64,000 nucleotides of DNA, from NCBI GenBank assembly GCA_947653235.1, contig CANTGH010000001.1:247191-311190 (forward strand), in the 5' to 3' direction. This document shows positions 730 to 31,572 of the stretch, piece by piece. Position 1 is the stretch's first letter, and each line of letters starts with the position of its first letter. The DNA comes from an uncultured Clostridium sp. GTDB taxonomy: Bacteria; Bacillota; Clostridia; TANB77; CAG-508. Under the pieces are notes generated by a model that was not told the origin of the DNA, did no database searches, and saw only the letters and a list, made by a program, of their open reading frames with translations. The position numbers were made by a program, and so were the translations under genes.

Positions 730-1056
730 TTAAAACTTAATTTCAATATCAACACCTGCTGGTAATTCTAATTTGGTTAGATTATCAACAGTTTTTTGCG
801 TTGGATAAAGAATATCAATTACTCTTTTATGGGTTCTCATTTCAAATTGTTCTCTGGAATCTTTGTGTTTGTGTGGAGAACGTAAAATTGTTATGATTTC
901 TTTTTCAGTTGGAAGCGGAATTGGACCTGATACTTTTGCTCCTGTTCTTTTAGCAGTTTCTACTATTTTTTCAGCAGACTGTTCTAAAACGACATGATCA
1001 TAAGCTTTTAGTCGAATTCTAATTTTGTCACTTCCTATTTTGTTTGATGTTGCCAT
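730..1056 (-). CDS. rpsJ: 30S ribosomal protein S10 (uS10)
   Basis: 108-aa [13 protein letters not shown]...SGPIPLPT...[20 protein letters not shown] is the canonical S10 sequence. RBS AAAGGAGGG precedes the start. Confidence 0.97.
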
Positions 1057-1083
1057 TTTTTTCCCTCCTTTTTAAATTCTACG

Positions 1084-1121
1084 AAAAAGTTGAAAAACAT
1101 TCTTTGATAAGGGTTTTCAAC
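1084..1121 (-). promoter_or_regulatory. Hairpin plus U-run (putative attenuator) in the long rpsJ 5' leader
   Basis: On the minus strand, GTTGAAAA...TTTTCAAC forms an 8-bp stem followed by TTTTT. It ends about 28 nt before the rpsJ start and lies inside a leader of about 320 nt that begins at the promoter at 1383-1412. Confidence 0.5.
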
Positions 1122-1382
1122 CTTTTTTGATTACGATAACGGCAAGTTATTAACGTATCCGAGTGTTTTCTTTTTCACCTTTTTAAATCCAAGTTATTTT
1201 TATTTTTTCTTAAAAATTCCCTTGGATAAGTTTTTCCCAAAAATACGTTTATCAAACTTATCGCCTGGTCTAAGCCACGACATACTCTGCAAGAGTTCCC
1301 TCCGCTTAAATAAAGTAAACAAAATTTCTCTTTATTTTACGTAGCCACATCTTGCTTCATCGCAAATCTACACGCAGTTGAT

Positions 1383-1412
1383 ATTATACTATGGATTGGT
1401 AGGATTTGTCAA
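1383..1412 (-). promoter_or_regulatory. Sigma-A type promoter of the rpsJ (S10) operon
   Basis: The minus strand reads TTGACA, an 18-nt spacer, then TATAAT. Confidence 0.6.
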
Positions 1413-1480
1413 TACTTTTTTTTACTTTTATGAAATTTTTATTTTTCGTTTCAAAAATCCTATTTTTATTAAAAATAACA

Positions 1481-1556
1481 AAAAAAGACCGAGCTTAATA
1501 AAAGTTCGGTCTTTTCTTTATTTTAACATATTTACGTAACTTTGTCAATAATCTGC
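1481..1556. repeat. Hairpin-plus-promoter repeat, copy R1 (bidirectional terminator hairpin 1487-1511 with flanking A/T runs)
   Basis: AAAAAAGACCGAGCTTAATAAAAGTTCGGTCTTTTCTT is nearly identical to the hairpin at 31497-31530. On the minus strand it is preceded by TTGACA-17-TAAAAT (1520-1548), which starts about 30 nt after the stop of the M23 peptidase gene. Confidence 0.6.
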
Positions 1557-2515: not shown

Positions 2516-3658
2516 CTACAAATTAATAACTTGTTCCCAAGGCAAATCTGGTTTTCCAAAATGCCCATAATTGGTGGTTTTTCGATAAATTGGTTTACGC
2601 AAATTCAGTGTGTTCATAATGCCTCTTGGTGTCAAATCAAATGTTTTTTCAATCTTTTCGATGATTTCCTCTTCTGGAATTGTAGCTGTTCCAAAAGTAT
2701 CCACCAAAATAGAAACTGGTTTGGCAACACCAATCGCATAAGAAAGCTGAATTTCACATTTTTTCGCATAGCCATTTGCTACGACATTTTTAGCAACAAA
2801 TCTTGCCATATAACAAGCACTACGATCTACTTTGGTAGGATCTTTTCCCGAAAACGCACCACCACCGTGACGACTATATCCGCCATAAGTATCCACAATA
2901 ATTTTTCTTCCTGTTAATCCACTATCTCCCAAAGGTCCACCAATGACAAATCGTCCTGTTGGATTAATATAATATTTTGTGTTTTCATCTAATAATTCTT
3001 CTGGCACAATCGCCTCAATAACTTTTTCTTTGACATCTTTTTTCAAAACCGTCAAATCCGTGTCTTGCGTATGTTGTGTCGATACCACAATCGTATCTAC
3101 ACGAACTGGCTTATCGTCTTCATATTCTACAGTAACTTGCACTTTACCATCTGGTCTTATGTAATCCATTATGCCCTGTTTTCTAACTTCTGTCAATCTT
3201 TTTGATAATTTGTGAGCTAAATCAATTGGCATTGGCATAAAATCTGCTGTTTCATCTGTGGCAAAGCCAAACATCATGCCTTGATCACCTGCACCTTCTG
3301 ATTCTATCTTTTCTCCTTCTTTGTCTTCATATGACTTATCCACACCTAGTGCAATATCTGGGGATTGCTTTGAAATATTAATCAAAACCTTACATGTTGC
3401 ATAATCAATATCCACTTCCTTTTCATGATATCCCACTTCTTTGATGGCATCCCTTACCACTTTTTCTAAATCCACTTCTGCAATAGATGTAATTTCTCCT
3501 GTTAACAAAATTTGCCCTTTCCCAGCAACCGTTTCACAAGCCACTCTTGCATAAGGGTCTTTTTCAAAATAGCTATCTAAAACACTATCGGATATAAAAT
3601 CACATAATTTGTCTGGATGCCCCTCTGTTACACTTTCTGACGTAAATAATTTTTTCAT
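2516..3658 (-). CDS. metK: S-adenosylmethionine synthetase
   Basis: 380 aa. [20 protein letters not shown]... and [16 protein letters not shown] are hallmark MetK motifs. Confidence 0.97.
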
Positions 3659-3702: not shown

Positions 3703-3850
3703 GCAAAAAAACCTTTGCAAAATGCAAAGGTTAACATTTCGATTTTAAAAATCATCAGCCAAAGCATTGCTTTGTCGGTATTAGCACCTTAAAAATTCAG
3801 GTTGCTGTGGAGTCATAAAGCCGATTCTCTCGTCCACTCTTGATAACATA
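3703..3850 (-). promoter_or_regulatory. SAM-I (S-box) riboswitch with terminator, upstream of metK
   Basis: The minus strand reads TTATCAAGAGTGGACGAGAGAATCGGCTTTATGACTCCACAGCAACC...AAGGTGCTAATACCGAC, which matches the S-box core (YUAUCAAGAG...GGCAACC...GGUGCUAA). The terminator hairpin AACCTTTGCATTTTGCAAAGGTT plus a T-run follows. Confidence 0.85.
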
Positions 3851-4011: not shown

Positions 4012-4130
4012 AACATAAAAACACAGCCTTTCTAAAGGCTGTGTTGCGATTATGTCGCAAAATAGCAAACGAAAGAAAAAACTAAAAAATCGGGATAATT
4101 TTTTGCTATTTTCGTAAAAAATCCTCTACC
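4012..4130 (-). ncRNA. Candidate small RNA (about 115 nt) with its own promoter and terminator, class unknown
   Basis: It lies downstream of a consensus promoter (-35 at 4158-4163, -10 at 4135-4140). No ATG-initiated ORF is present. Three predicted hairpins are seen: CGAAAATAGCAAA/TTTGCTATTTTGCG, TTGCGA/TCGCAA, and the terminator ACACAGCC...GGCTGTGT followed by a T-run. Confidence 0.45.
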
Positions 4131-4206
4131 TTTTATTATATCACATTTACGTTAATTTGTCAACTTGACTTTTTGTAAAAACCTGCTCTCACTTGATTTT
4201 ACTCTG
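4116..4206 (-). repeat. Promoter-bearing intergenic repeat, copy A
   Basis: It shares CCTC(T/C)ACCTTTTATTATATCAYATT...GTCAA(C/G)TTGAC...TGCTCTCACTTGWTTTTACT with copies at 38438-38527 and 50038-50128. It begins about 15 nt after the polA stop codon. Confidence 0.7.
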
Positions 4207-31492: not shown

Positions 31493-31572
31493 AAACAAAA
31501 AAAGACCGCACTTAATAAACATTCGGTCTTTCTTATATTATACCATACTTTAAATCAATTTGTCAAGCTTTC
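31493..31572. repeat. Hairpin-plus-promoter repeat, copy R2
   Basis: AAAAAAGACCGCACTTAATAAACATTCGGTCTTTCTTA is a near copy of 1481-1520. On the minus strand it is preceded by TTGACA-18-TATAAT (31537-31566), starting 15 nt after the stop of the CorC-like gene. Confidence 0.6.

What the first reader, a model, noticed from the sequence alone, without database searches (positions are those of the whole stretch)
4116..4206. Family of intergenic elements of about 90 bp carrying a perfect sigma-A promoter, placed immediately 3' of stop codons (copies A, B, C; related cores D, E)
Copies at 4116-4206, 38438-38527 and 50038-50128 align along their length. On the minus strand they read AGTAAAAWCAAGTGAGAGCAKRTTTT, about 12 nt, GTCAA(C/G)TTGAC(A/G), 17 nt, (A/G)TGATATAAT, then AAAAGGT(G/A)GAGG(G/A)T(A/T)TTTT. 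Each starts 10-25 nt after the stop of an unrelated gene (polA, the repeat protein, the FGE-like protein). The promoter is flanked by a direct repeat, [AG]GTGAG[AG]G.ATTTTT. The -35 sits in a GTCAAnTTGAC palindrome. Shorter relatives occur at 47335-47375 and, inverted, at 44185-44245, where the promoter points antisense into the deacetylase gene. The set looks like a dispersed regulatory or mobile module (MITE-like or a shared operator-promoter cassette) rather than independently evolved promoters.
Basis: seen in the sequence. Interest (0 to 1): 0.6.

Follow-up and report, generated by a model that had tools for sequence, protein, structure and literature searches.

The report
Repeated promoter-plus-terminator mini transcription units
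A repeated intergenic cassette in an uncultured gut Clostridia genome carries a near-perfect housekeeping promoter that in most copies runs straight into a terminator, so it most likely encodes a family of tiny (about 45-nt) RNAs of unknown role, not gene promoters or a classic mobile element.

Summary
Three minus-strand copies (4116-4206, 38438-38527, 50038-50128) align over about 88 nt (nhmmer E 1e-20 to 1e-25). Each starts 10-15 nt after a stop codon and carries TTGACR-17-TGATATAAT.

In 16 of 24 copies, from the window and six related Clostridia MAG species, the promoter is followed by a purine-rich start (GGTRRRGG), a U-run, and a 9-13 bp hairpin plus T-run. This ends about 45 nt from the predicted start.

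- Downstream genes are unrelated, often have their own promoters, and are sometimes convergent.
- The -35 lies in a 22-nt-arm palindrome that is sequence-symmetric without covariation. In some copies it is a back-to-back divergent promoter.
- No terminal inverted repeats or target-site duplications were found.
- Distribution is patchy: orthologous copies are kept after polA and before recD2/clpB, and the sites are empty or decayed in sister species.
- There is no Rfam, phage or plasmid match, except a 24-nt box shared with gut plasmid pTRACA41.

Best reading (about 0.5): a new family of tiny stand-alone sRNA-like transcription units. RNA function is unknown and expression is untested. Interest is moderate.

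The parts
38408..38527 (-). Copy B, complete canonical unit. 5' box 38527-38500; palindrome arms 38508-38487 and 38485-38464; -35 38485-38480; -10 38462-38457; predicted start at G 38452/38451; G-motif plus U-run 38452-38438; terminator hairpin 38437-38414; T-run 38413-38408. Predicted RNA about 45 nt.
   Evidence: (fold -9.9 kcal/mol, z -2.8)
4012..4206 (-). Copy A. Element 4206-4116 (-35 4163-4158, -10 4140-4135, predicted start about 4130), followed by a longer, about 115-nt structured transcript ending at terminator 4045-4020 plus T-run. The metK/SAM riboswitch further downstream has its own promoter at 3887-3859.
   Evidence: (117-nt fold -32.5 kcal/mol, z -4.5)
50038..50128 (-). Copy C. 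-35 50087-50082, -10 50064-50059, predicted start about 50054. No terminator follows, so the transcript runs into the DUF5665 gene (49971-49687). This copy acts as a gene promoter.
47305..47424 (.). Copy D, a back-to-back pair sharing the -35 palindrome. The minus-strand promoter 47352-47324 (TTGATA-17-TATAAT) points toward the purF-like operon. The plus-strand promoter 47354-47382 (TTGACT-17-TGcTATAAT) is followed at once by hairpin 47389-47418 plus T6, giving a roughly 38-nt hairpin RNA. The same hairpin is the terminator of the 558-aa gene on the other strand.
   Evidence: hits on both strands; z -4.9
44172..44239 (+). Copy E, promoter core only (TTGACA-17-TGATATAAT-AAAAGGT, 44192-44220). 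It lies after the holin gene terminator (44103-44135) and points antisense into the deacetylase gene. No 5' box and no terminator.
   Evidence: absent from the orthologous spacer of relative L154

Best explanation
The element is one member type of a multicopy family of very small, self-contained transcription units.

The full unit is about 135 bp and has five parts, in order:
1. An optional 5' box, TAAAATCAAGTGAGAGCA.
2. A sequence-symmetric palindrome, AGCAyATTTT-N8-TTTGTCAA(N)TTGACAAA-N8-AAAATrTGA, centred on the -35.
3. A consensus sigma-A promoter with an extended -10.
4. A transcript that begins at the GG of AAAAGGT, with a purine-rich Shine-Dalgarno-like motif (GGURRRGG) and a U-run.
5. 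A 9-13 bp AU-rich hairpin with a U-tail that terminates the RNA about 45 nt from its start.

The selected product is therefore a tiny RNA: a single-stranded 5' motif, a U-rich stretch and a terminator hairpin. This is the minimal layout of a trans-acting bacterial sRNA.

The units sit mostly just after the stop codon of a co-directional gene. The same hairpin then also ends that gene's mRNA, as with 3'UTR-embedded sRNA genes that have their own promoter.

Copy B is the canonical form. Copy A drives a longer structured RNA of about 115 nt. Copy C, and L016 in a relative, have been co-opted as real gene promoters.

Shown: the repeat family, the promoter and terminator signals, the constant length, compensatory stem changes, autonomy from neighbouring genes, and patchy but orthologous retention.

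Inferred: that the promoter fires and the hairpin terminates; that the 5' G-motif works as a 5' stabiliser (STAB-SD-like 30S binding) and/or as a seed; and that the palindrome is an operator for an unknown dimeric regulator or a relic of a divergent promoter.
For: 1. The promoter elements are invariant across all copies.
2. In 16 of 24 Clostridial copies a hairpin plus T-run follows, with the 3' end 47-51 nt after the -10 in the 12 canonical copies. Stem sequences differ (CGGAAATAAT / AAGAAATAAT / GAGAAGAAT) while pairing is kept. Folds are better than shuffles (z -2.4 to -3.4).
3. Neither neighbour explains the unit:
- Downstream genes are unrelated: recD2, metK, DUF5665, ltaS-like, vanW, rluB, clpB, purB, dusB and others.
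- Several downstream genes have their own promoter after the terminator.
- At least five copies have convergent downstream genes, and five have divergent upstream genes.
4. The same hairpin subtype recurs at different loci and in different species, so the hairpin belongs to the repeated unit.
5. Orthologous copies persist after polA (window A and MGBC L013, with a shared flank) and before recD2 (window B and L173, same hairpin), and before clpB (L028, L030). This argues for retention by selection.
6. The genome has a second, unrelated promoter-plus-terminator mini-unit family (1548-1480 and 31566-31497). Tiny units are therefore a habit of this genome.
7. An SD-like sequence near a 5' end is a known RNA stabiliser in Firmicutes (STAB-SD, PMC4113751).
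Against: - There is no expression data of any kind. Promoter and terminator are consensus matches only.
- The extra-window copies were fetched with a pattern that required TGATATAATAAAAGGTRRRGG, so conservation of the G-motif is inflated by ascertainment. Copies found without that requirement (D, E, L015b, L173) show a looser AAAAGnTAG motif.
- No convincing complementary target lies in the window, and pairing to the 16S anti-SD is weak: -7 to -9 kcal/mol against -20.7 for a canonical SD.
- In some copies the G-motif is buried in the hairpin (L015a, L015b, D+).
- Individual copies decay or are absent in close relatives (L174, L175), so single copies are dispensable.
- Some copies clearly act as ordinary gene promoters (window C; L016).
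Confidence: 0.5

Rival explanations
1. Mobile or recently dispersed selfish repeat (MITE-like or another non-autonomous element). It happens to carry a promoter and brings its own terminator, so insertions behind stop codons are tolerated. No RNA function is needed.
For: - Copies are multicopy with sharp boundaries, and assemblies break inside the element.
- Distribution among close relatives is patchy. There is no copy after polA, or within +/-10 kb, in species with 81, 78, 76 and 67% polA identity. The site before recD2 is empty in L175/L176 and decayed in L174.
- The whole unit, including its hairpin, behaves as an indel relative to L175, which has a different terminator.
- A 24-nt identity links the element to a gut plasmid beside a resolvase gene.
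Against: - No terminal inverted repeats. The only inverted repeats are the internal -35 palindrome and the terminator hairpin.
- No target-site duplication. The box/ITS direct repeat is a family-wide feature and is no more similar within a copy than between copies.
- Flanks show no common target.
- Orthologous copies are retained across 76-85% protein identity.
- Within-genome identity is barely higher than between-genome identity: 0.80 against 0.76.
- No hits in viral contigs.
- This rival concerns how copies spread and is not exclusive of an RNA function.
Confidence: 0.17
2. Shared operator-promoter cassette. One regulator binds the GTCAAnTTGAC-centred palindrome and co-regulates the genes downstream of each copy. 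The hairpin is a leaky or conditional attenuator.
For: - The palindrome is sequence-symmetric without compensatory change, as expected for a dimer-binding site and not for a hairpin.
- Window C and L016 do drive genes.
- The stems are weak, at -8 to -12 kcal/mol.
- The genome also uses a promoter-proximal hairpin directly before a purF-like gene (47263-47194).
Against: - Downstream genes share no functional theme.
- Several downstream genes have their own promoters after the terminator.
- At least five copies face a convergent gene.
- No alternative antiterminator pairing is evident in the 15-nt leader.
- In divergent-gene contexts the palindrome is simply two back-to-back promoters sharing -35 regions (L015a, L015b, window D).
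Confidence: 0.13
3. The act of transcription, not the RNA, is the function. A very strong promoter followed at once by a terminator recruits RNA polymerase and releases it onto the DNA, where it can slide and re-initiate at nearby weaker promoters. Alternatively the unit acts as a boundary or insulator between operons.
For: - Promoter and terminator are constrained, but the RNA sequence beyond the first 15 nt is free to vary.
- A second, unrelated sequence family has the same architecture in this genome.
- A weaker gene promoter often lies 60-250 bp downstream.
- Post-termination sliding and re-initiation over distances up to about 1 kb is documented in vitro for E. coli RNAP (PMC6978322, PMC10372574).
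Against: - This is purely inferential. The mechanism has not been shown in vivo or in Firmicutes.
- The conserved G-motif and U-run are not explained.
- Copies next to convergent genes have no obvious beneficiary promoter.
Confidence: 0.1
4. 3'UTR element serving the upstream gene. The box, palindrome and hairpin would stabilise or terminate that mRNA, and the promoter would be incidental.
For: - Most copies start 5-17 nt after a co-directional stop codon, and no other terminator lies between.
- The 5' box appears only in that context.
Against: - Perfect conservation of the -35, the 17-nt spacing, the TG and the -10 is not incidental.
- Five copies have no co-directional upstream gene.
- The palindrome shows no covariation as an RNA hairpin.
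Confidence: 0.05

Closest known systems
Sibling (multicopy) sRNA families such as LhrC1-5 of Listeria, csRNAs of Streptococcus, Qrr of Vibrio (own knowledge) and the FopS family of Bacteroides thetaiotaomicron (PMC11697453, seen)
   Same: Several paralogous short RNA genes per genome. Each has its own near-identical promoter, a conserved single-stranded motif and an intrinsic terminator, and they are scattered in intergenic regions.
   Different: - These RNAs are much shorter: about 45 nt against 70-150.
- The conserved motif is purine-rich and SD-like, not the C/U-rich anti-SD seed of the Firmicute families.
- No regulator, chaperone or target is known.
- There is no sequence or Rfam relationship.
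- Expression is untested.
3'UTR-embedded sRNA genes with their own promoter that share the mRNA's terminator (the 'type I' class, e.g. DapZ, MicL; own knowledge)
   Same: The promoter lies right at the end of a co-directional gene, and the sRNA and the mRNA end at the same terminator.
   Different: - Here the promoter lies after the stop codon, not inside the coding sequence.
- The same cassette is repeated behind many unrelated genes.
- Some copies have no co-directional upstream gene.
Dispersed intergenic repeats that carry promoter or terminator activity (Correia elements of Neisseria, BOX/RUP of pneumococcus, bcr1 of the Bacillus cereus group; own knowledge)
   Same: They are 90-150 bp, multicopy and intergenic, patchy among relatives, and able to supply promoters or terminators to neighbouring genes.
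   Different: No terminal inverted repeats or target-site duplications were found. The promoter is a full consensus promoter internal to the unit, not a hybrid created at a junction.
STAB-SD 5' mRNA stabiliser of Bacillus thuringiensis cry3A (PMC4113751)
   Same: A Shine-Dalgarno-like sequence at the 5' end of a transcript that does not start translation. It could bind 30S subunits and block 5'-3' decay.
   Different: The STAB-SD is GAAAGGAGG, with strong anti-SD pairing. GGUGAGGG and GGUAGAGG pair only weakly (-7 to -9 kcal/mol). No decay data exist here.

Membership tests
MITE / non-autonomous DNA transposon | Terminal inverted repeats at the two ends of the element | tested here: not met
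   The repeat finder on five copies found only the internal palindrome around the -35 and the terminator hairpin. The ends AGTAAAATCAAG... and ...GGGTATTTTT are not complementary.
MITE / non-autonomous DNA transposon | Target-site duplication flanking each copy, differing between copies | tested here: not met
   Flanks share no duplicated k-mer. The internal box/ITS direct repeat is family-wide and not more similar within a copy than between copies (permutation p=0.12).
MITE / non-autonomous DNA transposon | Presence/absence polymorphism at orthologous sites | tested here: met
   The recD2-upstream site is filled in the window and L173, decayed in L174, and empty in L175/L176. The polA-downstream site is filled in the window and L013 and empty in L153-L156. 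Divergence is too high to define clean insertion boundaries.
MITE / non-autonomous DNA transposon | A related autonomous element encoding a transposase | not testable with these tools
   Only about 8-kb pieces of the MAGs could be fetched. No transposase was seen next to any copy.
Trans-acting sRNA gene (sibling sRNA family) | Own promoter and intrinsic terminator delimiting a short non-coding transcript | tested here: met
   Consensus promoter in all copies. A hairpin plus T-run ends about 45 nt from the predicted start in 16 of 24 copies. These are sequence signals only.
Trans-acting sRNA gene (sibling sRNA family) | Conserved single-stranded seed while the terminator stem varies with compensatory changes | tested here: inconclusive
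   GGURRRGG plus a U-run is unpaired in the 12 canonical copies, and the stems vary with pairing kept. Most copies were retrieved by a pattern containing the motif, and three copies bury it in the stem.
Trans-acting sRNA gene (sibling sRNA family) | Detectable transcript and identifiable targets | not testable with these tools
   No RNA data were available. The duplex scan of the 64-kb window gave no convincing mRNA-strand site.
Regulon operator-promoter (one regulator, many genes) | Shared symmetric operator overlapping the promoter | tested here: met
   22-nt arms; 75.5% of cells paired in register against about 40% when slid; no covariation, with a score of 0.099 against 0.100 in shuffles.
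Regulon operator-promoter (one regulator, many genes) | The promoter transcribes the downstream gene, and the genes are functionally related | tested here: not met
   A terminator intervenes in most copies. Downstream genes have their own promoters or are convergent, and their functions are unrelated. Exceptions are window C and L016.
Any described RNA family (Rfam 15) | Covariance-model match | tested here: not met
   No match on any copy at gathering thresholds or at E<=5.
Invertible promoter (inverton) | Inverted repeats flanking the promoter so that it can flip | tested here: not met
   The palindrome arms are adjacent (0-1 nt apart) and the -10 lies outside them.

The most novel reading that the evidence does not exclude
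The promoter-then-terminator mini-units are not RNA genes. They would be polymerase 'loading pads'. A consensus promoter captures sigma-A RNA polymerase, a terminator 45 nt later releases the RNA but not the enzyme, and the sliding post-termination polymerase re-initiates at nearby weaker promoters. This would be a genome-encoded use of the post-termination recycling pathway, which so far has been seen only in vitro. Two unrelated sequence families with this architecture in one genome would then be convergent solutions.
Probability: 0.07. Interest if true: 0.8.

Novelty: new member of a known kind. Interest (0 to 1): 0.45.

Why it matters
If these units are transcribed as predicted, an uncultured group of gut Clostridia carries a dozen or more copies of one of the smallest promoter-to-terminator RNA genes described. 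They are driven by a textbook-perfect promoter and tucked behind unrelated genes.

That would add a new multicopy sRNA family in a lineage with no RNA biology. It would also give a clean natural test case for two questions: what a 5' SD-like motif does on a non-coding RNA, and whether strong promoter-terminator pairs influence neighbouring promoters.

Practically, the cassette is a ready-made strong promoter and terminator pair for engineering such organisms. It is also a caution for annotators: a perfect promoter next to a gene need not serve that gene.

Tried and rejected
- **Rfam.** Searches at gathering thresholds and at E<=5 found only the SAM riboswitch and the L10 leader, nothing on the elements. 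tRNA/tmRNA scan: none.
- **Phage and plasmid BLAST of copy B.** Only short chance matches, except the 5' box in pTRACA41.
- **Viral contig scans.** Both halves were scanned. One gave 0 hits and the other 16 chance hits with no extension.
- **Metagenome scan with the 5' box.** This returned mostly chance hits. The real ones were the MGBC loci again and the pTRACA41-like plasmid contigs.
- **Target-site duplication or within-copy repeat covariation.** Rejected.
- **Hairpin or cruciform selection on the -35 palindrome.** Rejected: no covariation.
- **Concerted evolution within genomes.** Not supported: identity 0.80 within against 0.76 between.
- **Small ORF in the short transcript.** No conserved start codon or frame across copies (reading).
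- **Anti-SD titration as a strong claim.** The predicted duplex is weak.
- **Target search in the window.** Nothing convincing.
- **Known operator motifs recalled from memory** (CtsR, Spo0A box, cre, CodY, Rex, sporulation sigma promoters). None fits GTCAAnTTGAC or the 5' box. These were not tested further.
- **Extending the window.** The contig ends about 0.9 kb beyond one side, and the other side is the ribosomal protein operon, so no extra copies could be sampled.
- **Organism naming.** Cluster look-up gave no names.

Full report
**1. What is there**

The window (32.5% G+C) is part of a 240-kb contig of an uncultured Clostridia MAG (ENA ERZ14425209 NODE_24). Nearly all its genes are on the minus strand.

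An HMM built from them finds them at E=1e-20 to 1e-25. It finds only two further significant places, D (47305-47382, on both strands) and E (44172-44239).

Each full copy has a 11-12/12 match to TTGACA-17-TATAAT with an upstream TG. Each begins 11-15 nt after the stop codon of polA, a 116-aa repeat protein or an FGE-sulfatase-like protein.

**2. The unit is longer than reported**

I scanned one genome per GTDB species for TGATATAATAAAAGGTRRRGG.
- Hits: 7 in MAG MGBC101636, 5 in CANEDP01, 2 in CANSKZ01 (a third found by HMM), and 1 each in CANPFR01, CAOJGX01 and CAOJUE01. All are uncultured Clostridia.
- There were also scattered single hits in other phyla, where the motif is simply a promoter followed by a real ribosome-binding site and a start codon.

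Laying the Clostridial copies side by side shows what the three window copies hide, because they diverge from each other right after ATTTTT. In most copies the U-run is followed at once by a 9-13 bp AU-rich hairpin and a T-run.
- Sixteen of 24 copies have this.
- In the 12 canonical copies the T-run ends 47-51 nt after the -10, which gives an RNA of about 45 nt if transcription starts at the GG of AAAAGGT.
- The stems fall into subtypes (CGGAAATAAT, AAGAAATAAT, GAGAAGAAT) that keep pairing through changes on both sides. They fold better than shuffles (z -2.4 to -3.4).

The window copies fit this picture as follows:
- Copy B is canonical (hairpin 38437-38414).
- Copy A instead drives a structured RNA of about 115 nt that ends at the terminator 4045-4020 (z -4.5).
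- Copy C has no terminator and reads into a DUF5665 gene.

**3. The unit is autonomous**

- Downstream genes are recD2, metK, DUF5665, an LtaS-like sulfatase, VanW, RluB, an HgdC/BcrA-like activase, a capsule kinase, PurB, ClpB and DusB. They share no theme.
- After the terminator of B, recD2 has its own promoter (38385-38357). After A, the SAM riboswitch and metK have theirs (3887-3859). The same holds in L015.
- In at least five loci the downstream gene is convergent, and in five the upstream gene is divergent.

So neither neighbour is required. What is maintained is a strong promoter, a short conserved 5' segment and a terminator at a fixed distance.

**4. The palindrome and the 5' box**

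The -35 lies at the centre of a larger symmetric sequence: 22-nt arms, 73% complementary in B and in L022. Over 16 copies, 75.5% of cells pair in register against about 40% when the partner is slid. Covariation, however, is no higher than in shuffles (0.099 against 0.100). The symmetry is therefore one of sequence, not a selected hairpin.

Where the upstream gene is divergent (L015a, L015b), the left arm ends in a proper -10. The structure is then two back-to-back promoters sharing their -35 regions (32-nt arms, 78%). Window D is the same arrangement. Its plus-strand half (47354-47382) is followed at once by the hairpin 47389-47418 plus T6, another tiny unit.

Where the upstream gene is co-directional, the mirrored -10 position reads CTCTCAC.

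The box resembles the '-10 plus initial transcript' of the real promoter: TAAAAT-caa-GTGAGAG-cATATTTTT against TATAAT-aaaag-GTGAGGG-tATTTTT. This is 20/27 in copy C. The resemblance is modest family-wide and is not copy-specific, so it is not a target-site duplication.

**5. Evolution**

- Copy A has a positional orthologue after polA in MGBC101636 (polA 76.5% identical, shared flank AAAAGCsAAAAA).
- Species with 81, 78, 76 and 67% polA identity have no copy there or within +/-10 kb.
- Copy B has an orthologue with the same hairpin in a species with 85% identical RecD2 (L173), a decayed remnant at 83% (L174), and empty sites at 81% and 78%. L175 carries a different terminator at the site.
- Copies before clpB (L028, L030) and before the 1108-aa activase gene (L015b, L022) are also positional orthologues.
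- Within-genome identity (0.80) barely exceeds between-genome identity (0.76).

The picture is birth, long retention and occasional decay. No transposon hallmarks were found and there are no phage copies.

**6. Context in this genome**

- Many sigma-A promoters in the window share a spacer consensus, AAwTTAyGTAAAwATGn. This weakens the case that D and E are true family members beyond TATAATAAAAGGT.
- A second, unrelated pair of mini-units has the same logic: a stop codon, TTGACA-17/18-TAwAAT, the GACCGAA...CGGTC hairpin and then T7. The pair lies at 1548-1480 and 31566-31497, behind an M23 peptidase gene and a CNNM/CorC gene, and ahead of the rpsJ leader and spoIIID.
- By my reading of the and 46 scans, roughly a third of the clear intergenic terminators in the window are preceded within 35 nt by a strong co-directional promoter.
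- No such units were seen in 77 kb from four sister species.

**7. Mechanism**

The most economical reading is a family of tiny stand-alone RNA genes (confidence about 0.5). The 5' purine motif is SD-like. In L016 it sits 12 nt before the dusB start codon, and in other phyla the same string is a true ribosome-binding site. The motif may therefore descend from a promoter-proximal ribosome-binding site. It may now act like the STAB-SD 5' stabiliser of Firmicutes (PMC4113751), a seed, or both.

Predicted anti-SD pairing is weak, and no target was found in the window. RNA function therefore remains open.

The rivals are:
- a selfish dispersed repeat (0.17, and not exclusive of an RNA function);
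- an operator-promoter regulon with leaky attenuators (0.13);
- a transcription-level role such as polymerase recycling onto nearby promoters (0.10; the in vitro basis is in PMC6978322 and PMC10372574);
- a 3'UTR element serving the upstream gene (0.05).

**8. Comparison with known families, and novelty**

No Rfam family matches. In architecture the closest matches are sibling sRNA families and 3'UTR-embedded sRNA genes with their own promoter. In genomic behaviour the closest matches are promoter- or terminator-bearing intergenic repeats such as Correia or BOX elements. The element lacks their inverted repeats and duplications.

I file it as a new member of a known kind: a multicopy small-RNA gene or intergenic repeat family. 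Its unusual features are its extreme shortness, a perfect promoter and a symmetric -35 region. Without RNA data the interest is moderate (0.45).

**9. Unexplained**

A 24-nt stretch of the 5' box (CAGTAAAATCAAGTGAGAGCATAT), plus TTTGTCAAG at the same distance, occurs in the gut plasmid pTRACA41 and in four similar metagenome contigs. It sits in an AT-rich island about 320 bp upstream of a serine resolvase gene, without the promoter half. I could not determine whether this reflects a shared protein-binding site or an exchange of DNA.

Noticed in passing
window 1480-1548 (-) and 31497-31566 (-): A second, unrelated pair of promoter-plus-terminator mini-units (TTGACA-17/18-TAwAAT, then AAGAAAGACCGAAnnTTTATTAAGnnCGGTC plus T7). 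Each lies right after a stop codon (M23 peptidase; CNNM/CorC transporter) and ahead of the rpsJ leader and spoIIID. It was not found in any other held locus.
   Followed up: partly
window 47190-47263 (-): A promoter (TTGACG-17-TATAAT) is followed immediately by a 42-nt hairpin plus T5, then the RBS and start codon of a purF-like amidotransferase gene (start 47186). It looks like a very short promoter-proximal attenuator or riboswitch-like leader. No Rfam match.
   Followed up: no
window 36107-38339 (-); also L174 388-2617 and L175 10001-12239: recD2 is split into a 676-aa ORF and an overlapping roughly 80-aa ORF (PF13538 UvrD_C_2) in another frame. The same split occurs in at least two related species, while more distant homologues are fused at 742-743 aa. 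This is a conserved gene split or a programmed frameshift.
   Followed up: no
L152 (plasmid pTRACA41, HM560024.1) 3585-3630; L068, L124, L135, L150: A 24-nt identity with the element's 5' box, plus TTTGTCAAG at the same spacing. It sits in an AT-rich non-coding island about 320 bp upstream of a serine resolvase gene, flanked by repeated TTGTAAC motifs. The promoter half of the element is absent there.
   Followed up: partly
window 1056-1412 (-): A leader of about 340 nt lies between a strong promoter (TTGACA-18-TATAAT at 1412) and the rpsJ start codon. No Rfam match even at E<=5. This may be an undescribed S10-operon leader.
   Followed up: no
window-wide, e.g. 45766, 27190, 11875, 1548, 4163 (-): Many sigma-A-type promoters of this genome share a conserved spacer (AAwTTAyGTAAAwATGn) between the -35 and -10, beyond the usual TRTG extended -10. 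Relatives show it too, e.g. after polA in L153 and L155.
   Followed up: partly
window 3749-3849 (-) and 57839-58019 (-): An ordinary SAM riboswitch upstream of metK and an L10 leader upstream of rplJ. These are the only Rfam matches above threshold in the window.
   Followed up: yes
L012 5397-5460 (Saccharibacteria MAG): The same architecture (TTGACA-17-TGATATAAT-AAAAGGTAGAGGGG, then hairpin TGCCATG...TATGGCA plus T7) occurs in an unrelated phylum. This is possibly convergence or chance.
   Followed up: no
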